Assembly (NCBI RefSeq): GCF_050920415.1
Contig: NZ_CP169309.1
Source: Escherichia coli
GTDB taxonomy: Bacteria > Pseudomonadota > Gammaproteobacteria > Enterobacterales > Enterobacteriaceae
Direction: 5' to 3' (one strand)
Length of the DNA stretch: 64,000 nucleotides
A program made the translations under genes and the position numbers. Numbering within the stretch: position 1 is the first letter of the stretch; the number at the start of each line of letters is the position of its first letter. Shown piece after piece: positions 2,282 to 59,323 of the stretch. The notes beneath the pieces are model-generated. The model searched no databases and had not been told where the DNA came from. It worked only from the letters and a program-made list of their open reading frames with translations.

Positions 2282-3307
2282 CTACACCGCCTTATTAGGA
2301 TCAAATGCGTCGCGGACGGCTTCACCAATAAAGATCAGCAAAGACAACAATATCGCCACCGACAAGAAGGCGGTGATCCCAAGCCACGGGGCCTGAAGGT
2401 TATTTTTCCCTTGTAACAGCAGTTCGCCGAGTGACGGTGAACCGAGCGGCAGACCGAAGCCGAGGAAATCGAGTGAGGTCAGGGTGGTGATCGAACTACA
2501 TAAAATAAACGGTAAAAAGGTGAGGGTAGCGACCATGGCATTTGGCAACATATGACGCAGGATGATACTGCGATCGCTGACGCCAAGCGCCTGCGCCGCA
2601 CGGATGTAGTCGAAATTACGGGTACGTAAAAACTCCGCCCGCACCACGCCGACCAGACTCATCCAGCCAAACAAGACGGTAATTGCCAACAGCCACCAGA
2701 AGTTAGGCTGTACGACGCTGGAAAGTAAAATAATCAAAAACAGCGTCGGCATCCCCGACCATACTTCAATAAAACGTTGCCCCCAGAGATCGACTTTACC
2801 GCCGTAATAGCCTTGTAGCGCCCCCGCCAACACGCCCATCACGCTGGAGCAGAGGGTCAGCATCAGGCCAAACAGAACTGAGATCCGCGTGCCATAGAGA
2901 ATGCGCGCCAGCACATCGCCGCCATTGGCATCCGTTCCCAGCCAGTTTTGCCGGGAGGGTGGAGAAGGGAAGGGCTTATCGGTAGCAAAGTTGATACTGG
3001 TAGCACCAAAGCGAATCGGTGCCCACAGTACCCAGCCTTTATCTTCCAACCGCTGTTTCAGCCACGGGTCCTGATAATCAGCCTGGCTTGCCAGCGGGCC
3101 GCCAAAATCGCTTTCGCTGTAGTTTTTCAACAACGGGAAATACCAACTGCCGTCATAACGTACCAGCAACGGTTTATCGTTGGCGATAAGTTCAGAACAC
3201 AAACTCAAACCAAATAAGACGAGGAAAATCCATAACGACCAGTAGCCGCGACGGTTATGACGAAAACGCGCCCAACGGGCCTGATTGACGGGGCTGAGTC
3301 GCGACAT
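2282..3307 (-). CDS. yejE: Peptide ABC transporter permease
   Basis: 341 aa multi-TM ORF, stop/start coupled to yejF and yejB; matches K-12 YejE length. Confidence 0.9.
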   Translation of the reverse strand: MSRLSPVNQARWARFRHNRRGYWSLWIFLVLFGLSLCSELIANDKPLLVRYDGSWYFPLLKNYSESDFGGPLASQADYQDPWLKQRLEDKGWVLWAPIRFGATSINFATDKPFPSPPSRQNWLGTDANGGDVLARILYGTRISVLFGLMLTLCSSVMGVLAGALQGYYGGKVDLWGQRFIEVWSGMPTLFLIILLSSVVQPNFWWLLAITVLFGWMSLVGVVRAEFLRTRNFDYIRAAQALGVSDRSIILRHMLPNAMVATLTFLPFILCSSITTLTSLDFLGFGLPLGSPSLGELLLQGKNNLQAPWLGITAFLSVAILLSLLIFIGEAVRDAFDPNKAV

Positions 3308-4401
3308 TAACGTCCCTCAAAATCTATACGCGGATCGACCAGCGTATAGCTGATATCACTGACAATATTCAGCAGCAGGCCAATCAGGGTGAAAATATAC
3401 AAGGTACCAAACATTACAGGATAATCGCGCGAGACGGTCGCTTCGTAGCCCAGTAAGCCAAGACCATTGAGTGAAAACATCACCTCAATCAGCAGCGAGC
3501 CGGTAAAAAACATGCTGATAAACGTCGCCGGAAAACCGGCAATCACCAGCAGCATGGCGTTGCGGAACACATGTTTCCAGAGAATATTTTTTTCACTTAC
3601 CCCTTTCGCACGGGCGGTCACCACGTATTGCTTGCGCACTTCATCAAGGAATGAGTTTTTTGTCAGCATGGTCAGCGCCGCAAAGCCGCCAATCACCGTC
3701 GCCAGCACCGGCAGCGTGATATGCCACAGATAATCGGTGATTTTCTGATACCACGGCAGCGAATCAAAGTTAGCGGAAACCAGGCCGCGCAGAGGGAACA
3801 GGTCGAAATAGCTGCCGCCCGCGAAGAAGACAATCAGCAGGATGGCAAACAAAAAGGCCGGAATGGCGTACCCGATGATGATAAATGCGCTACTCCAGAC
3901 GTCAAAGCGGCTACCATTATAAACAGCTTTGCGAATACCCAGCGGAATCGACACCAGATAGATAATCAGCGTGCTCCACAATCCGAGGGTGATGGAAACC
4001 GGCAGACTGTCTTTAATCAGCGTCAGCACCGAGGCGCTGCGAAACAGGCTATCGCCAAAATCAAAGCGGATGTAGTCCCAGAGCATTTTGAAGTAACGTT
4101 CGTGGATCGGCTTATCGAAACCGTAGCGATGAGTGATCTCGGCGATCACTTCTGGATCTAATCCGCGTCCACCACGGTAATTACTGTCGCTGATATTGCC
4201 GACGCCCGTTTGCGCATGGCTGGCGCGAACACCTTCACCGCCTGCGCCGGGTAATACTCCGGCATTACCAAACTCAATGGCGGCGATGGCCTGGTCGACC
4301 GGACCGCCAGGCGCAATTTGCACGATGAAAAAGTTGATAGTGATAATCGCCCATAACGTTGGGATCACCAGCAACAGACGGCGAATCAGATAAGCGCCCA
4401 T
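3307..4401 (-). CDS. yejB: Peptide ABC transporter permease
   Basis: 364 aa membrane ORF; overlaps yejE start by 1 nt; operon position. Confidence 0.9.
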
Positions 4402-52111: not shown

Positions 52112-52205
52112 TTAATTCGTAAAACGTGCTACCGATCACATTAAGAATTCTCAGCATAGTTGAATTACAGGGAAGTAACATCGGGCGAGTGCCCAGTTCA
52201 GCACA

Positions 52206-53114
52206 CTAATTCTGCTGTAAAAAGTGCAGAAACTGACTTAAAGCATAAGAAGGCGTTTCGTTATTACGCCAAAACACACCGACGCTGCCTTTCTGTTCAA
52301 TCTTTGGCAGGTTGAGGATCACCAGTTGCCCCTGGCTGGCATAACGTTGCGCCAGGCGTAATGACAAAATAGAGATCATATTGCTGCTTTGTAACAGGTT
52401 GGTACTGACGTTCATCGACGCCGACTCAATCGTGTTTTCTGGCAGCATCACGCCGTGGTCTACCAGCGCATTATCAATGCTGATGCGGATGGGGGTACCT
52501 GTCGGCCAGACTATCCACCGCCAGTTAGCAAGATCATTCCAGCTGAGGGTGGCGTATTTCGCCAGTGGATGCTCAGGACGGGCGACAAAGCATACCGGCT
52601 CGGTGTAGAGCACGCGATAATTCAGCGGCAGCTGCAACGCGCGACCGCCAATTCGCCCAACCACCACATCGATAGAACCTGCCAACAGATCTTGCAGCAA
52701 TGGGGTCATCACCTTCTCTTCGATATTCAGGTGTAGAGTTGGCATCTCCTTGAGCAAATGCAAAATCGCCTGGGATACGCAGTCAGTGGCGACGGGAGAA
52801 CAGCCAATTTTCAGACTGCCGACCAGTCCACCTTGTTTAAAGCGAGCCAGTTCATATTGCGATCTTTCCATGTCATTGATTAACCGTTGGGCATGTTGCA
52901 ATAACAATTTGCCGCCTTCGGTCGGACGAAGCCCGTTGCTGTGCCGCTCAAAAAGTGTGAGTCCGATCTCATCTTCCAGTTGTGACAACCATTTCGAAAG
53001 CGCGGGTTGGGTGATATTCATCATCCGTGCGACATGGGTCAGATTACCCTGTTCACCCAGCGCCACCAGCATTTGCAGGTGATGTAGTTTTAGTTTTTGC
53101 GCCCAGTTCGCCAT
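52206..53114 (-). CDS. mhbR: LysR-family regulator of the gentisate/3-hydroxybenzoate cluster
   Basis: ORF 52206..53162; start at MANWAQKLKLHHLQ (ATG 53112-53114) preceded by GGAGG; divergent from the catabolic operon; symbol by analogy to Klebsiella mhb. Confidence 0.65.
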   Translation of the reverse strand: MANWAQKLKLHHLQMLVALGEQGNLTHVARMMNITQPALSKWLSQLEDEIGLTLFERHSNGLRPTEGGKLLLQHAQRLINDMERSQYELARFKQGGLVGSLKIGCSPVATDCVSQAILHLLKEMPTLHLNIEEKVMTPLLQDLLAGSIDVVVGRIGGRALQLPLNYRVLYTEPVCFVARPEHPLAKYATLSWNDLANWRWIVWPTGTPIRISIDNALVDHGVMLPENTIESASMNVSTNLLQSSNMISILSLRLAQRYASQGQLVILNLPKIEQKGSVGVFWRNNETPSYALSQFLHFLQQN

Positions 53115-53240
53115 TTGCCATAACCTCCAGGTTATCTCTCTGCCCGAAATGCCATTGTACATCTCATCTCTTTAATCACATTATCGCAACATATACAAAA
53201 CAAAAGAAACATCTACCTTACCTGCACTGAGGCATTTACT

Positions 53241-54599
53241 ATGACTCAACGACGTGATTTACAAGCACTTATCGATGCCGCTCCGGTCGGCAAGATGCAG
53301 TGGCGCGTTATCATCTGCTGTTTTCTGGTGGTAATGCTCGATGGTTTTGACACCGCGGCTATCGGCTTTATCGCCCCTGATATTCGCACTCACTGGCAAC
53401 TCACCGCAGGCGATCTCGCCCCGCTTTTTGGTGCGGGTCTGCTGGGTTTAACGGCAGGCGCACTGCTTTGTGGCCCGTTGTCTGACCGCTTTGGCCGCAA
53501 ACGGGTGATAGAGCTATGCGTCTTTTTATTTGGCGCGTTAAGTCTCGCCTCTGCGTTTTCACCAGATCTGCAAACGCTGGTATTACTGCGTTTTCTCACC
53601 GGCCTGGGGCTTGGCGGGGCGATGCCGAACACCATCACCATGACCTCGGAATATCTGCCTGCCCGTCGCCGGGGCGCGCTGGTGACGCTGATGTTTTGCG
53701 GCTTTACGCTGGGTTCGGCGTTTGGCGGGATTGTCAGCGCACAGCTGGTGCCGGTGATTGGCTGGCACGGCATTCTGGTGTTGGGGGGCGTGTTACCGCT
53801 GATGCTGTTTGTCGCACTGCTGGTAGTTCTGCCGGAATCGCCACGCTGGCAGGTGCGCCGCCAGCTACCGCAGGCGGTGATTGCGAAAACCGTCAGCGCC
53901 ATCACCCGCGAGCGTTATGTCGATACCCACTTTTATCTCATTGAATCAGCCTCCGTTACAAAAGGCAGCATTCGTCAACTGTTTATGGGACGTCAGTTAC
54001 CCATTACGTTGATGCTTTGGGTGGTGTTCTTTATGAGCCTGCTGATTATTTACCTGCTCTCAAGCTGGATGCCAACGCTGTTGAACCATCGCGGCATAGA
54101 CCTGCAACACGCGTCCTGGGTCACCGCCGCGTTCCAGATTGGCGGTACGTTGGGCGCGCTGGCGCTGGGCGTGCTGATGGATAAGTTCAATCCTTTCCGC
54201 GTGCTGGCGCTGAGCTATGCCGTAGGCGCTGTATGCATCGTGATGATTGGCTTAAGCCAGGATGGATTATGGCTGATGGCGCTGGCGATTTTCGGCACCG
54301 GCATTGGCATTAGCGGATCTCAGGTGGGGTTGAACGCGTTGACCGCAACGCTCTACCCAACGCAAAGCCGCGCCACGGGCGTGAGCTGGTCAAACGCCGT
54401 AGGCCGCTGCGGCGCGATTGTCGGCTCGCTTTCTGGCGGCCTGATGATGGCGATGAATTTCTCTTTCGACACCCTGTTTTTCATTATCGCTGTGCCCGCG
54501 GCGATCAGTGCGGTGATGTTAAGCCTGCTGATCACCGTGGTTCGCCAGTCGACCTCTGTCCCTGACTCACTGCCTCGCGCAGGCGTTGTGAACGAATAA
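53241..54599 (+). CDS. mhbT: MFS aromatic acid (3-hydroxybenzoate/gentisate) transporter
   Basis: 452 aa 12-TM MFS; first gene of operon. Confidence 0.65.
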
Positions 54600-54610
54600 G
54601 GAGCATCCTA

Positions 54611-55639
54611 ATGACTGATAACAATCAAAAAAGCCGCGAGCAATTTTATCAGCATATTTCCGGGCAAAACCTGACCCCGCTGTGGGAGTCACTGCACCAC
54701 CTGGTGCCGAAAACGCCCAACGCCAACTGTGCGCCAGCGTACTGGAATTATCAGGAGATCCGCCCGCTGCTGCTGGAGAGCGGCAGCCTGATTGGCGCGA
54801 AAGAAGCTGTGCGTCGTGTGCTGGTACTGGAAAACCCGGCGCTGCGCGGGCAGTCTTCCATTACCGCGACTTTATATGCCGGTTTGCAACTGATCATGCC
54901 GGGCGAAGTGGCACCGAGTCATCGTCATAACCAATCGGCGCTGCGTTTTATTGTTGAAGGCAAAGGGGCATTTACCGCCGTTGATGGCGAACGCACGCCA
55001 ATGAATGAGGGCGATTTTATCCTGACCCCACAATGGCGCTGGCACGATCATGGTAACCCTGGCGACGAACCGGTTATCTGGCTCGATGGACTGGATCTGC
55101 CATTAGTGAACACTCTGGGCTGCGGTTTTGCCGAAGATTACCCGGAAGAGCAACAACCGGTCACGCGTAAAGAGGGGGATTATCTGCCGCGTTATGCCGC
55201 CAATATGTTGCCGCTGCGCCATCAGACGGGGAACTCCTCACCGATCTTTAACTATCGTTATGACCGTAGCCGCGAAGTGCTGCACGATTTAACCCGCCTG
55301 GGCGATGCCGACGAGTGGGATGGCTACAAAATGCGCTACGTCAACCCGGTCACCGGCGGCTATCCGATGCCGTCGATGGGCGCTTTCCTGCAACTGCTAC
55401 CGAAAGGGTTCGCCTCCCGCGTGGCGCGTACCACTGACAGCACTATCTACCATGTGGTGGAAGGTAGCGGACAAGTCACCATCGGCAATGAAATCTTCAC
55501 CTTTAGTGCAAAAGATCTCTTTGTGGTGCCGACCTGGCACGGCGTGTCATTCCAGACTACGCAAGATACCGTTTTATTCAGTTTTTCGGACAGACCGGTA
55601 CAAGAAGCCCTGGGGCTGTTCCGCGAAGCGCGTTATTAA
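54611..55639 (+). CDS. mhbD: Gentisate 1,2-dioxygenase (bicupin)
   Basis: 342 aa; length and two-cupin layout typical of gentisate dioxygenases. Confidence 0.7.
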
Positions 55640-55654
55640 TTTGGGAGAGAGAAA

Positions 55655-56356
55655 ATGACTCAATATGTATTCGAACCACAAGCGCCCGTTACCGTACCGG
55701 TTGTTGGCAGTGATGAACAATTCCCCGTGCGCCGCGTTTACTGCGTCGGGCGTAACTATGCTGCCCACGCCCGCGAAATGGGCTTTGATCCGGATCGTGA
55801 ACCCCCCTTCTTCTTCTGCAAACCAGCAGATGCCGTTGTTCCGGTCGCCGCTGGCGAAACGCTGGCGCTGCCGTATCCGGCGCAGACCGATAACTATCAT
55901 TACGAAATTGAACTGGTGGTGGCGATTGGTAAAAAGGGCAGCGATATCCCACTGGAAAAGGCCCATGAATATGTCTGGGGTTATGCCACAGGCCTTGATA
56001 TGACTCGCCGTGACCGTCAAATGGAAATGCGTCAGATGGGCCGCCCGTGGGAAATCGGCAAAGCATTTGATCTCTCGGCCCCCATCGCACCGCTGCACAA
56101 AGCCAGCGAAACTGGCGGTATTGATAACGCACCTATCTGGTTACAGGTTAACGGTGAAGATCACCAGCGCAGCGATATTCGCCATCTCATCTGGTCGGTG
56201 AATGAAACCATCAGCTACCTGTCAGGCTTCTTTGAACTGCAACCGGGCGATCTAATCTTTACCGGTACGCCGGAAGGGGTTGGCCCAGTAGTCAAAGGTG
56301 ATGTGATCACGGGCAACGTCGAGGGCTTAACCCCTATCGCGGTGAAGATCGTCTGA
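55655..56356 (+). CDS. mhbH: Fumarylpyruvate hydrolase (FAH family)
   Basis: 233 aa FAH-fold size; position after the dioxygenase. Confidence 0.65.
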
Positions 56357-56361
56357 GGTGC

Positions 56362-57009
56362 ATGATGAAGCTGTACAGTTTTTTTAATAGTTCAGCATCG
56401 TACCGGGTACGCATTGCGCTGGCGCTGAAAGGCATTAATTACCAGACCGAAGGGGTGAATATCCGTATTGGTCGGCAAAATGAACTGGCCTATCGGCGGA
56501 TGAATCCTGTCGGGCTGGTGCCGACGCTGCTGACTGACGAGGGCGAGTCACTCGGTCAGTCGCTGGCGATTATTGACTGGCTGGATCGTCACTACCCGCA
56601 AGTTCCGCTGGTGCCGCAGGAAGAACCGGCCCGCAATAAGGTGCTGGGAATTGTCTATGCCATCGCTTGTGATATTCATCCATTGAATAACCTGCGCGTG
56701 CTGCGCTATCTGACCGAAGAGCTGAACGTCAGTGAAGAAGAGAAAAAACGCTGGTATGCGCACTGGATCCAGCAAGGGTTAAGCGCGGTGGAACAGCTAC
56801 TGCGCCAGAGCCAGTCGGGGCAATTTTGTGTGGGTGAGACGCCGACGCTGGCAGACTGCTGCCTTGTTCCGCAGTGGGCGAACGCGCTACGTATGAACTG
56901 CGATCTGAGAGGATATCCGCGCTGCAAAGCGGTGTACGACGCCTGCACACAACTGCCAGCGTTCATTGCCGCAGCGCCAGAAAATCAACAAGATAAAATT
57001 TCAGCCTGA
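56362..57009 (+). CDS. mhbI: Maleylpyruvate isomerase (GST zeta-like)
   Basis: 215 aa GST-like ORF; adjacent ATG at 56365. Confidence 0.65.
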   Translation: MMKLYSFFNSSASYRVRIALALKGINYQTEGVNIRIGRQNELAYRRMNPVGLVPTLLTDEGESLGQSLAIIDWLDRHYPQVPLVPQEEPARNKVLGIVYAIACDIHPLNNLRVLRYLTEELNVSEEEKKRWYAHWIQQGLSAVEQLLRQSQSGQFCVGETPTLADCCLVPQWANALRMNCDLRGYPRCKAVYDACTQLPAFIAAAPENQQDKISA

Positions 57010-57023
57010 CCAGGAGAACCATA

Positions 57024-58217
57024 ATGACTAAAGTGACACGCGCAGTAATTGTGGGAGGCGGGATCGGCGGTGCGGCAACTGCGCTGTCACTGGCCCGCCA
57101 GGGGATCAAAGTGGTGCTGCTGGAAAAGGCGCATGAGATCGGTGAGATTGGCGCAGGTATCCAGTTGGGGCCAAATGCGTTTTCGGCGTTGGATAGTCTT
57201 GGTGTTGGCGAAATCGCCCGCCAACGTGCGGTATTCACCGATCACATCACCATGATGGACGCGGTGAACGCCGAAGAAGTGGTGCGTATTGAAACCGGGC
57301 AGGCCTTTCGTGACCATTTCGGCGGCCCTTACGCGGTGATCCACCGCGTTGATATTCATGCCTCGGTGTGGGAAGCGGTACTGACGCATCCGGACGTGGA
57401 ATATCACACCTCCACCAACGTCGTGGATATTCGCGAGACGGAAGACGATGTCACCGTGTTTGACGATCGCGGCAATAGCTGGAGCGGCGATATTCTGATT
57501 GGCTGTGACGGTGTGAAATCAGTGGTGCGCCAGAGCTTATTGGGCGATGCGCCGCGTGTCACCGGACATGTGGTCTACCGTGCGGTTATCGATTGTGCCG
57601 ATATGCCGGAAGATTTGCGCATTAACGCACCGGTACTGTGGGCGGGGCCGCATTGTCACCTGGTGCATTACCCTTTGCGCGGCGGCAAGCAGTATAACCT
57701 GGTGGTAACATTCCACAGCCGCCAGCAGGAAGAGTGGGGCGTGAAGGATGGCAGTAAAGAGGAAGTGCTCTCTTACTTTGAAGGGATTCACCCCCGTCCG
57801 CGCCAGATGTTGGATAAACCGACTTCATGGCGACGCTGGTCAACCGCTGACCGTGAACCGGTGGCGAAGTGGGGAACGAAGCGCATAACGCTTGTGGGCG
57901 ATGCGGCCCATCCGGTGGCGCAATATATGGCGCAGGGAGCCTGTATGGCGCTGGAAGATGCAGTAACGCTGGGTAAGGCGCTGGCGCAGTGTGAGGGTGA
58001 TGCGGCGCAAGCCTTTGCGCTGTATGAGTCGGTACGAATTCCGCGCACCGCGCGCATCGTCTGGTCGACCCGTGAAATGGGGCGGGTTTATCACGCCGCA
58101 GGGGTAGAACGTCAGGTACGTAACCTGCTGTGGAAAGGGAAATCGCAGGCAGAGTTTTATCGCGGCATGGAGTGGCTGTACGGCTGGAAAGAAGATAACT
58201 GTTTGCAACCACGCTGA
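57024..58217 (+). CDS. mhbM: 3-hydroxybenzoate 6-hydroxylase (FAD monooxygenase)
   Basis: 397 aa; FAD fingerprint VGGGIGGAATAL; GDAAH motif. Confidence 0.7.
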   Translation: MTKVTRAVIVGGGIGGAATALSLARQGIKVVLLEKAHEIGEIGAGIQLGPNAFSALDSLGVGEIARQRAVFTDHITMMDAVNAEEVVRIETGQAFRDHFGGPYAVIHRVDIHASVWEAVLTHPDVEYHTSTNVVDIRETEDDVTVFDDRGNSWSGDILIGCDGVKSVVRQSLLGDAPRVTGHVVYRAVIDCADMPEDLRINAPVLWAGPHCHLVHYPLRGGKQYNLVVTFHSRQQEEWGVKDGSKEEVLSYFEGIHPRPRQMLDKPTSWRRWSTADREPVAKWGTKRITLVGDAAHPVAQYMAQGACMALEDAVTLGKALAQCEGDAAQAFALYESVRIPRTARIVWSTREMGRVYHAAGVERQVRNLLWKGKSQAEFYRGMEWLYGWKEDNCLQPR

Positions 58218-58375
58218 GCACTTCTTCACCCAATCAGGCGCACGGGCGGTCCCCTCGCCCCTTCGGGAGAGGGTTAGGGTGAGGGAAAAATCTTGCCCGA
58301 ATTAATCAGTAAGTCAGTTTGTCTGCAAACACCAGAGGCGCTAACATAGCGCCTCATTTTTTTGCGGGTGATGAT

Positions 58376-59323
58376 ATGCGTGTGTTACTGGCGCCGATGG
58401 AGGGTGTACTCGACTCTCTGGTGCGTGAATTGCTGACCGAAGTTAACGACTACGATCTGTGCATCACCGAGTTTGTCCGCGTGGTGGATCAACTGCTGCC
58501 GGTAAAAGTTTTTCATCGCATTTGCCCGGAGCTACAAAACGCCAGCCGAACGCCATCCGGTACGCTGGTGCGCGTGCAATTGCTGGGTCAGTTCCCACAA
58601 TGGCTGGCAGAGAACGCCGCCCGTGCGGTGGAGTTAGGTTCCTGGGGTGTGGATCTTAATTGCGGCTGTCCGTCGAAAACGGTTAACGGTAGCGGCGGCG
58701 GGGCGACACTACTCAAAGATCCTGAACTCATCTACCAGGGTGCAAAAGCGATGCGTGAAGCTGTACCGGCGCATTTGCCCGTCAGTGTGAAAGTGCGTCT
58801 GGGCTGGGACAGCGGTGAGAAGAAATTTGAAATCGCCGATGCGGTTCAACAGGCTGGCGCTACGGAGTTGGTGGTGCATGGGCGGACAAAAGAGCAGGGG
58901 TACCGCGCGGAGCATATTGACTGGCAGGCGATTGGCGAGATTCGCCAACGGCTGAATATTCCGGTGATTGCCAACGGTGAAATCTGGGACTGGCAGAGCG
59001 CGCAACAGTGTATGGCGATCAGCGGCTGTGACGCGGTGATGATTGGTCGCGGAGCGCTCAATATTCCCAATCTGAGCCGAGTGGTAAAATATAACGAACC
59101 GCGAATGCCGTGGCCGGAGGTGGTTGCTTTGCTACAAAAATATACCCGTCTGGAAAAGCAGGGCGATACCGGGTTATATCACGTTGCGCGGATTAAACAG
59201 TGGTTGAGTTATTTGCGTAAAGAATACGATGAAGCAACAGAATTATTTCAGCATGTTCGGGTGTTGAATAATTCCCCTGATATTGCAAGGGCTATTCAGA
59301 CCATTGATATCGAGAAACTCTAA
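58376..59323 (+). CDS. dusC: tRNA-dihydrouridine synthase C
   Basis: 315 aa from [16 protein letters not shown] track start 58319 is an extension. Confidence 0.9.

What the first reader, a model, noticed from the sequence alone, without database searches (positions are those of the whole stretch)
58218..58300. Palindromic GGGAGAGGG / GGGTGAGGG element at the right junction of the mhb island
Immediately after the monooxygenase stop lies cccctcgcccc ttcgg gagagggttagggtgaggg, a composite inverted repeat. It could act as a terminator, or it could be a member of an intergenic repeat family marking the insertion boundary.
Basis: seen in the sequence. Interest (0 to 1): 0.3.

Follow-up and report, generated by a model that had tools for sequence, protein, structure and literature searches.

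The report
BoxC repeat behind the mhb operon
The G-rich palindrome after the 3-hydroxybenzoate monooxygenase gene is one more copy of BoxC, a short repeat long known in E. coli intergenic DNA; it is neither the operon's terminator nor a mark of where the gene island went in.

Summary
The sequence is real: CCCCTCGCCCC-TTC-GGGAGAGGG-TTA-GGGTGAGGG at 58251-58285, 34 nt after the mhbM stop. It is the only such motif in the window.

It is a member of the BoxC family, also published as PIT, TMECO type "A mm" and HPG1. A 65-nt query finds a median of 18 places per E. coli genome and 13 in this strain, all intergenic.

It is not a terminator. No T-run follows it, and earlier experiments found no terminator activity. 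A canonical hairpin plus T7 lies 50 nt downstream, and K-12 and Salmonella share it.

It does not mark the island boundary. 138 of 504 genomes with mhb at yohJ-dusC lack it. Salmonella has mhb at the same locus without it. There is no partner at the left junction. It sits in a 112-nt strain-variable spacer.

An unexpected lead came up. BoxC-like three-armed repeats bracket genes of the DUF559/YcjD (Vsr-like nuclease) family in many phyla: 23 of 27 unbiased loci have them. E. coli strains with ycjD carry about five times more BoxC copies. BoxC may stand to DUF559 as REP stands to RAYT.

The parts
58238..58288 (+). BoxC repeat unit, the block conserved among family members: GCGCACGGGCGGTCCCCTCGCCCCTTCGGGAGAGGGTTAGGGTGAGGGAAA
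   Evidence: The invariant columns of alignment A1, built with six other E. coli copies, run from position 39 to 89 of a sequence that starts at 58200. It matches the 'A mm' entries of Table 1 of PMC4666352 except for one G fewer in each G-arm.
58251..58261 (+). C-rich arm CCCCTCGCCCC
58265..58273 (+). first G-arm GGGAGAGGG; pairs with the C-arm apart from a G.A mismatch
58277..58285 (+). second G-arm GGGTGAGGG; pairs with the C-arm apart from a G.T wobble, and is the proposed third strand of the triplex or fourth G-tract of the quadruplex
   Evidence: PMC4666352 and PMC5100583
58224..58335 (+). 112-nt strain-variable spacer that carries the BoxC unit. In E5/HYM1-type island-bearing strains and in K-12 it is replaced by the 15-nt sequence TAATCCGCTGACCAT.
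   Evidence: Alignments A3 and A4. The right tail 58284-58336 is single-copy and found only at this locus, in 365 genomes.
58335..58363 (+). terminator-like hairpin GAGGCGCTAACATAGCGCCTC followed by ATTTTTTT; the likely real end of the mhb transcript
   Evidence: Terminator scan. Kept in the 158-nt MFE fold, z = -3.98. Conserved in K-12, E5 and Salmonella.
57024..58217 (+). 3-hydroxybenzoate 6-monooxygenase gene (mhbM), last gene of the mhb cluster (context)
58376..59323 (+). dusC (context)
   Evidence: RefSeq annotation of the identical record

Best explanation
The element is a solitary copy of the BoxC repeat (also called PIT, TMECO type A-mm and HPG1). It is a roughly 51-bp non-coding unit made of a C-rich arm and two G-rich arms. 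It lies in a 112-nt strain-variable spacer between the mhbM stop codon and the conserved hairpin-plus-T7 terminator just upstream of dusC. Three things are shown: it belongs to a dispersed intergenic family, it is dispensable for the island and for the junction, and it lacks the anatomy of an intrinsic terminator. The rest is inferred. It is probably a selfish or neutral passenger that is transcribed as the tail of the mhb operon mRNA. There its C-arm pairs with one or other G-arm to give a GC-rich hairpin, which could at most slow 3'-5' exonucleases as REP elements do. As single-stranded DNA the same fold-back (hairpin, triplex or quadruplex) favours slippage and local rearrangement, which would explain why this spacer varies between strains. 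Its likely origin is one terminal repeat, a 'solo end', of a small element that encodes a DUF559/YcjD Vsr-like nuclease.
For: Family membership. The 65-nt query gives 94,053 places in 5425 of 5426 E. coli genomes, a median of 18 per genome and 13 in this strain, all under no annotated feature. Six other loci share an invariant core. The core is identical to sequences tabulated as BoxC/TMECO and HPG1.

Dispensability. 504 genomes have mhbM next to dusC and 366 of them have the BoxC allele, so 138 lack it. The BoxC-free allele is shown in L009 and L013. Salmonella has mhb at yohJ-dusC with no BoxC.

Not a terminator. AAAAA follows the last arm. The only consensus terminator lies at 58335-58363. 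Published assays found no promoter or terminator activity.

Variable slot. In three of four other loci K-12 carries REP/BIME exactly where other strains carry BoxC. This agrees with the published excess of intergenic change around these motifs.

The O145:H28 copy of the mhb cluster, in a different IS-rich island, keeps a degenerate left half of the element.

DUF559 origin: see the full report.
Against: No expression, RNA 3'-end or half-life data were available, so the mRNA role is purely inferred. The BoxC allele is 97-100% conserved across about 365 genomes. That could reflect selection rather than recent common ancestry. Which allele is ancestral, with or without BoxC, could not be settled: the two differ by two indels plus substitutions, and no target-site duplication or terminal inverted repeat bounds the 112-nt spacer. 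O157:H7-like strains lack ycjD yet keep 14-15 copies, so current copies do not need the nuclease to persist. In vivo DMS footprinting in the literature did not detect a triplex.
Confidence: 0.8

Rival explanations
1. It is the Rho-independent terminator of the mhb operon: the GC-rich hairpin forms in the nascent RNA and releases the polymerase.
For: It starts 34 nt after the last stop codon and folds into a stable GC-rich hairpin of -22.2 kcal/mol. In six of the other E. coli loci the copy also lies 10-35 nt after a stop codon.
Against: No U-tract follows; GGGAAAAATC does. The consensus scan does not call it, and instead calls a 9-bp stem plus T7 at 58335-58363. That hairpin is the conserved feature in Salmonella, K-12 and BoxC-free strains. 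Hoyne and Maher's assays, as summarised in PMC4666352, found no terminator or promoter activity for these motifs. Copies occur in both orientations relative to transcription, for example pstA-pstB.
Confidence: 0.04
2. It marks the insertion boundary of the mhb island. It would be an attachment site, a recombination scar or a flanking repeat used to integrate the island between yohJ and dusC.
For: It lies only about 45 nt inside the point where homology to island-free strains resumes. BoxC loci are reported to be enriched in rearrangements. In the O145:H28 copy, similarity ends inside the element.
Against: 138 of 504 genomes with the island at this locus have the same junction without BoxC. Salmonella has the cluster at the same locus without it. 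There is no second copy at the left junction or anywhere else in 64 kb. K-12 carries 121 nt of unrelated sequence in place of the island, so the difference is a replacement and not a clean insertion with duplications.
Confidence: 0.06
3. It is a regulatory structural switch. The region would toggle between duplex, hairpin and G-quadruplex or triplex, and so tune read-through from mhb into dusC or the stability of the transcript.
For: Four G-tracts with 3-nt loops fit the quadruplex rule, and the C-arm offers a competing hairpin. CD spectra show ion-dependent switching in vitro. CD and NMR show a stable triplex for the isolated strand. The allele is well conserved in about 365 genomes.
Against: No link to gene class, distance or operon position was found for the K-12 copies. 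In vivo footprinting was negative. The element is absent from a quarter of island-bearing strains and from Salmonella with no visible compensating change. REP elements substitute for BoxC in the same slots.
Confidence: 0.1

Closest known systems
BoxC (Bergler 1992; Bachellier 1996/1999) = PIT elements (Hoyne & Maher 2000, 2002) = TMECO type 'A mm' (Holder et al. 2015, PMC4666352) = HPG1 (Kaplan et al. 2016, PMC5100583)
   Same: It has the same three arms, the TTA second loop, the central mismatch, the left flank GCGCACGG.C.GT and the trailing A-run. It is intergenic, multi-copy, and sits in a strain-variable spacer.
   Different: Each G-arm is one G shorter than in most K-12 copies (GGGAGAGGG and GGGTGAGGGA, against GGGGAGAGGG and GGGTGAGGGG). 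Otherwise nothing differs. This locus is absent from K-12 because the island is absent.
REP/BIME elements and their RAYT transposases (REPINs)
   Same: Both are short GC-rich imperfect palindromes placed just after stop codons in variable intergenic slots. REP and BoxC occupy the same slots in different strains. Like REP with RAYT, BoxC-like repeats bracket one small nuclease gene family in inverted orientation, and their abundance tracks the presence of that gene.
   Different: The sequence is unrelated. BoxC has three arms, not two. The associated protein is a PD-(D/E)XK Vsr-like nuclease (DUF559), not an IS200/IS605-type Y1 transposase. No mobilisation has been shown.
Rho-independent (intrinsic) terminators
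   Same: A GC-rich hairpin shortly after a stop codon.
   Different: There is no U-tract. Published tests found no terminator activity. A true terminator-like site lies 50 nt further on.
Rickettsia palindromic elements (RPE) and other MITEs that insert in frame into genes
   Same: This applies to the lead only. DUF559 genes with their flanking repeats are found translated in frame inside unrelated proteins, for example trpC (IGPS-DUF559-IGPS).
   Different: The insert carries a whole nuclease domain, and the repeats are three-armed. The window copy is intergenic.

Membership tests
BoxC / PIT / TMECO | Three-part sequence: C-arm CCCTC(G/T)CCC(C), short loop, GGG(G)AGAGGG, loop TTA (type A) or CCG (type B), GGGTGAGGG(G) | tested here: met
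   58251-58285 reads CCCCTCGCCCC TTC GGGAGAGGG TTA GGGTGAGGG. It matches the type A 'mm' rows of Table 1 in PMC4666352.
BoxC / PIT / TMECO | Many dispersed copies per genome | tested here: met
   13 places in this strain's chromosome and a median of 18 per genome over 5425 genomes.
BoxC / PIT / TMECO | Strictly intergenic location | tested here: met
   It lies between mhbM and dusC. Every listed hit has no annotated feature under it.
BoxC / PIT / TMECO | Conserved unit of about 50-56 bp that extends left of the C-arm | tested here: met
   The invariant block 58238-58288 is shared with six other loci. BoxC length is given as 50-56 bp in PMC2267715.
BoxC / PIT / TMECO | Forms an intrastrand triplex or quadruplex as an isolated strand | not testable with these tools
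   Only Watson-Crick folding could be computed. The in-vitro evidence comes from the literature.
Intrinsic terminator | GC-rich stem-loop followed directly by a T/U-run | tested here: not met
   GGGAAAAATC follows the last arm. The scan does not call it, and calls 58335-58363 instead.
Island boundary repeat / att site | Present at every occupied junction, with a partner at the other end | tested here: not met
   It is absent from 138 of 504 occupied loci and from Salmonella. There is no copy at the left junction.
MITE (non-autonomous transposon) | Terminal inverted repeats and a target-site duplication that bound the inserted unit | tested here: inconclusive
   Comparing filled and empty alleles gives two indels and no clean ends. 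Only a 6-nt AATCAG repeat flanks the core. The right tail is single-copy.
Rfam RNA families | Match to a curated covariance model | tested here: not met
   Only chance-level hits with E > 5.
Proposed DUF559-associated repeat (solo end) | The same three-armed repeat brackets a DUF559 gene in the same or related genomes | tested here: met
   E. coli ycjD ends inside a degenerate BoxC and has an intact one 168 nt downstream. L048 and L120 show the exact 21-mer on both sides or one side of the gene. 23 of 27 unbiased loci have such repeats.
Proposed DUF559-associated repeat (solo end) | The nuclease binds, cuts or mobilises the repeat | not testable with these tools
   No biochemical or genetic data were available. 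No paper in the held library links them.

The most novel reading that the evidence does not exclude
BoxC/PIT/TMECO repeats would be the cognate DNA of the DUF559 (YcjD-family, Vsr-like PD-(D/E)XK) nucleases. The full element would be a roughly 0.5-kb unit in which two inverted three-armed repeats bracket one DUF559 gene. Solitary BoxC copies such as the one at 58238-58288, and the A+B inverted pairs of K-12, would be its gene-less derivatives, as REPINs are to RAYTs. The conserved G.T mismatch, formed when the C-arm pairs with the GGGTGAGGG arm, may be what a Vsr-like mismatch nuclease recognises. The association between gene and repeat is well supported here. Causation, meaning that the nuclease spreads or maintains the repeats, is inferred.
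Probability: 0.45. Interest if true: 0.75.

Novelty: already known. Interest (0 to 1): 0.35.

Why it matters
The finding itself changes little. It adds one routine copy of a repeat family described in 1992 and surveyed in 2000, 2015 and 2016. It also corrects two tempting misreadings, terminator and island scar.

It does sharpen the picture of this locus. The mhb cluster is syntenic with Salmonella. The real terminator lies downstream and survives as an orphan in K-12. The spacer behind mhbM is one of the hypervariable slots that alternately hold BoxC, REP or nothing.

The wider value lies in the lead. BoxC has had no known origin or function for three decades, and DUF559 is a very large family of unknown function (25,064 representative clusters). 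A consistent physical association between the two, across phyla, turns both open questions into a direct experiment: does YcjD act on BoxC DNA?

Tried and rejected
- Rfam at a permissive threshold gave only chance hits.
- The repeat finder did not report the palindrome because of the central mismatch.
- Folding z-scores of the 56-nt element are not significant, so I did not argue from stability.
- I looked for a longer mobile unit. The tail 58286-58335 resembles the argE-ppc and adk-hemH tails by eye. BLAST shows it is single-copy, so only the core is repeated.
- I looked for remnants of the island in the 121 nt that K-12 has in its place and found none.
- I tried to define insertion ends from filled and empty sites at recA-recX, flgF-flgG, ypfG-tktB and argE-ppc. 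The alleles are wholesale replacements, often by REP, with no clean ends.
- The other two hits of my loose three-arm finder in the window (39811, 50717) are chance matches inside coding sequence.
- One DUF559 representative had no retrievable DNA (P0140). One showed no flanking motif (L149), as did four of the 27 viral-collection loci.
- I did not establish whether the window strain itself carries ycjD.
- The metagenome scan was not used, because the cheaper viral-contig scan gave enough loci.

Full report
**Observation**

The window is E. coli. It is 100% identical to strain MFDS1022581. The monooxygenase ORF ends at 58217. From 58251 the + strand reads CCCCTCGCCCC TTC GGGAGAGGG TTA GGGTGAGGG, followed by AAAAATC. 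Each G-arm is complementary to the C-arm at eight of nine positions. The exception is a central G.A pair for arm 1 and a G.T pair for arm 2.

The 21-mer occurs once in 64 kb even with three mismatches allowed, and never in shuffles. The C-arm/G-arm pattern is also unique. Stability alone is not remarkable for this base composition, with z = -0.85 and -0.15. Rfam has nothing.

**What it is**

A 65-nt query (58236-58300) finds 94,053 places in 5425 of 5426 complete E. coli genomes. The median is 18 per genome and this strain has 13, and none lies under an annotated feature. I fetched six other loci: argE-ppc, pstA-pstB, ypfG-tktB, flgF-flgG, adk-hemH and recA-recX. They share an invariant block that corresponds to 58238-58288, and outside it the flanks are unrelated.

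The literature held in the library names this block.
- It is BoxC, a 50-56-bp E. coli repeat.
- It was rediscovered as the PIT element, and then as the TMECO 'triplex motif'. K-12 has 23 copies, 13 of them of the same 'A mm' type as here.
- It was described again as the HPG1 quadruplex/hairpin motif, whose consensus is exactly GGGAGAGGGTTAGGGTGAGGG.

The window copy differs only by one G fewer in each G-arm. Membership is not in doubt.

**The junction**

Island-free strains such as K-12 match the window up to 52147 on the left and from 58331 on the right. Between those points K-12 has 121 nt that match nothing in the island. The difference is therefore a replacement, not an insertion with duplications.

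Island-bearing genomes fall into several alleles.
- 504 genomes have mhbM beside dusC.
- 366 of these carry the BoxC allele. 365 carry its single-copy right tail.
- The other 138, such as E5 and HYM1, have a 61-bp mhbM-dusC spacer. There the stop codon is followed almost at once by the K-12-type sequence TTAATCCGCTGACCAT and the shared hairpin.

Relative to these, the window has a 112-nt spacer (58224-58335) in place of 15 nt.

Salmonella enterica, whose MhbM is 91% identical, has the whole cluster at the same yohJ-dusC locus. Its spacer is 108 bp, has no BoxC, and keeps the same terminal hairpin.

In O145:H28 the cluster sits in a different, IS-rich island. There it is followed by a degenerate left half of the element, after which similarity stops. 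A plasmid copy diverges before the stop codon and abuts IS1414.

No second BoxC exists at the left junction or anywhere else in the window.

These facts rule out a role as an island boundary marker. They place the element inside a variable 3' spacer that belongs to one lineage of the mhb module.

**Terminator question**

The element has no T-run on either strand in terminator position. The only consensus intrinsic terminator in the region is GAGGCGCTAACATAGCGCCTC plus ATTTTTTT at 58335-58363. It is retained in the minimum-energy fold of the whole spacer, z = -3.98. It is conserved in Salmonella, K-12 and BoxC-free strains. Published assays found neither promoter nor terminator activity for these motifs. 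The mhb transcript most likely ends at that hairpin, and BoxC is simply part of its 3' untranslated tail.

**How it most likely works**

What is shown is limited to three points: a dispersed repeat, dispensable at this site, in a hypervariable slot.

The slot idea has further support. At flgF-flgG, ypfG-tktB and argE-ppc, K-12 carries REP/BIME sequences exactly where other strains carry BoxC. At recA-recX, K-12 has neither. Holder et al. likewise report far more intergenic change around these motifs than around control regions.

From this I infer that the copy is a selfish or neutral passenger.
- As RNA it can form a GC-rich hairpin. This is at best a REP-like barrier to exonucleases.
- As single-stranded DNA its fold-back structures would promote slippage. 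That fits the indel polymorphism seen here.

None of this inferred part was tested.

**A lead outside the coordinates**

These came from Pseudomonas, Polaromonas, Bradyrhizobium, Deltaproteobacteria, Verrucomicrobia, Gracilibacteria and a methanogen MAG. In nearly all of the 124 copies (L084 is an exception) the same kind of C-arm lies upstream, while the outer flanks are specific to each lineage.

The first cases:
- In L048 two inverted copies bracket a 126-aa ORF that is Pfam DUF559, E = 1.9e-38.
- L120 shows the same arrangement.
- In E. coli K-12 the DUF559 gene ycjD ends ...SPSP* inside a degenerate BoxC. Downstream come a partial duplicate of its own 3' end and then intact BoxC copy no. 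9, 168 nt away. This is the fabI (envM) region where, from memory, Box C was first described.

Protein-level evidence:
- phmmer of YcjD finds 25,064 representative clusters.
- Among the best 150, a simple peptide signature of translated repeats occurs 73 times in 18,874 residues of sequence flanking the domain (53 of 150 proteins). It occurs 0 times in 47,689 residues of control proteins.
- Several representatives are DUF559 domains with repeat peptides on both sides, inserted in frame into unrelated proteins, for example trpC.

DNA-level evidence:
- Five of six representatives chosen because they lacked such tails still have three-armed repeats on both sides in the DNA. The arm sequences are specific to each lineage.
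- An independent sample of 27 full-length DUF559 loci from viral contigs shows such repeats within 250 nt in 23 loci, and on both sides in 15.
- In that sample the density is 9.3 per kb near the gene against 0.19 per kb farther away in the same loci. These are raw hits, and overlapping registers inflate the near figure.
- Enterobacterial control DNA gives 3 clusters in 164 kb, one of them the BoxC under study.

Evidence within E. coli:
- A chimeric ycjD+BoxC query shows ycjD in 3374 of 5426 genomes.
- In an evenly spaced sample of 60 genomes, ycjD+ genomes have a median of 19 BoxC places (range 12-28). ycjD- genomes have a median of 4 (range 1-15), p = 4e-10.
- This is confounded by phylogroup. 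ycjD is replaced by eefRABCD outside phylogroups A, B1 and C.

The five A+B inverted pairs in K-12 would fit gene-less versions of such a unit. No paper in the held library connects DUF559 or YcjD with BoxC. I cannot exclude that it is described elsewhere.

**Comparison and novelty**

The element in the window is an ordinary member of a known family. It works like REP/BIME in position and variability but is unrelated in sequence. It is not a terminator and not an att site. The thing itself is already known.

The most novel reading the evidence allows is that BoxC is the REPIN-like partner of DUF559 nucleases. The association is strong. The mechanism is inference. One speculative point is that a Vsr-like enzyme might recognise the conserved G.T mismatch of the fold-back.

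**Caveats**

- There are no transcript data.
- The ancestral state of the spacer is unresolved.
- My three-arm finder is ad hoc and its counts include overlapping registers.
- The viral-contig sample may include misclassified cellular DNA.
- The ycjD/BoxC correlation is not phylogenetically corrected.
- O157-like strains keep 14-15 copies without ycjD.

Noticed in passing
window 58335-58363 (also L002 ~3005-3033; L014 ~4262-4290): A canonical hairpin plus T7 lies 13 nt upstream of the dusC start codon. It is conserved in K-12, where nothing reads into it from upstream, and in Salmonella. It looks like the mhb operon terminator left as an orphan in island-free strains, or else a leader structure of dusC.
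   Followed up: partly
window 52148-58330; L014, L016-L018: The 'mhb island' lies at the same yohJ-dusC locus in Salmonella enterica (MhbM 91% identical). In K-12 it is replaced by 121 unrelated nt rather than cleanly absent. It may be ancestral and lost in most E. coli, not a recent insertion. Some Salmonella contigs show a decayed cluster with split LysR and truncated dioxygenase ORFs.
   Followed up: partly
L003, L005, L006, L008 versus K-12 L139-L142: BoxC and REP/BIME are alternative occupants of the same intergenic slots. At flgF-flgG, ypfG-tktB and argE-ppc, K-12 has REP where other strains have BoxC. At recA-recX a roughly 190-nt BoxC-containing segment replaces 16 nt just before the recA terminator.
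   Followed up: partly
L011 9168-9260 (E. coli O145:H28) and L012 9160-9270 (plasmid pOkiPb01715_1): The mhb cluster also exists in a second chromosomal, IS-rich island, with a decayed half BoxC after mhbM. It also exists on about 25 plasmid records, where IS1414 follows it and ST-I enterotoxin and enterohaemolysin genes lie nearby.
   Followed up: no
L143 2030-2840 (K-12 fabI-ycjD-sapF): ycjD (DUF559) ends inside a degenerate BoxC hairpin. Downstream come a partial duplicate of its own 3' end and then an intact BoxC. The BoxC left flank ACGGAC.GTCCCC resembles the ycjD 3' coding sequence CTGAACCGTCCC.
   Followed up: yes
L048 6987-7434; L120 3419-3855; L144-L150; L151-L177: Across many lineages, DUF559 genes are bracketed by inverted three-armed repeats (C-arm, G-arm, second G-arm). 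The arm sequences differ by lineage, for example CTTCTCCC/GGGAGAAG/GGATGAGG and CCCTCCCC/GGGGAGGG/GGGGTGGG, as if repeat and gene co-evolve.
   Followed up: yes
L146 1501-2889; proteins P0127, P0149, P0155, P0158, P0166, P0183, P0187, P0191, P0212, P0215, P0223, P0228: DUF559 domains with repeat-derived linkers (…PSPxPLPxGEG…) are called in frame inside unrelated proteins, including TrpC, CobT-like, methyltransferase and type I R-M S-subunit-like proteins. Whether the hosts remain functional is unknown.
   Followed up: partly
E. coli genome searches: The number of BoxC copies per E. coli genome ranges from 1 to about 30 and follows the presence of ycjD: median 19 in ycjD+ genomes against 4 in ycjD- genomes. 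B2-type strains such as ATCC 25922 and Nissle have only 3-4 copies.
   Followed up: partly
L019-L138: The exact 21-mer GGGAGAGGGTTAGGGTGAGGG, in nearly all copies with the same kind of C-arm upstream, occurs in distant phyla, including Gracilibacteria and a Methanomicrobiaceae MAG. In Pseudomonas it forms inverted pairs 50-100 nt apart that look like MITEs.
   Followed up: partly
window 58232-58237 and 58305-58310: AATCAG occurs on both sides of the BoxC core. It could be a short duplication or chance.
   Followed up: no
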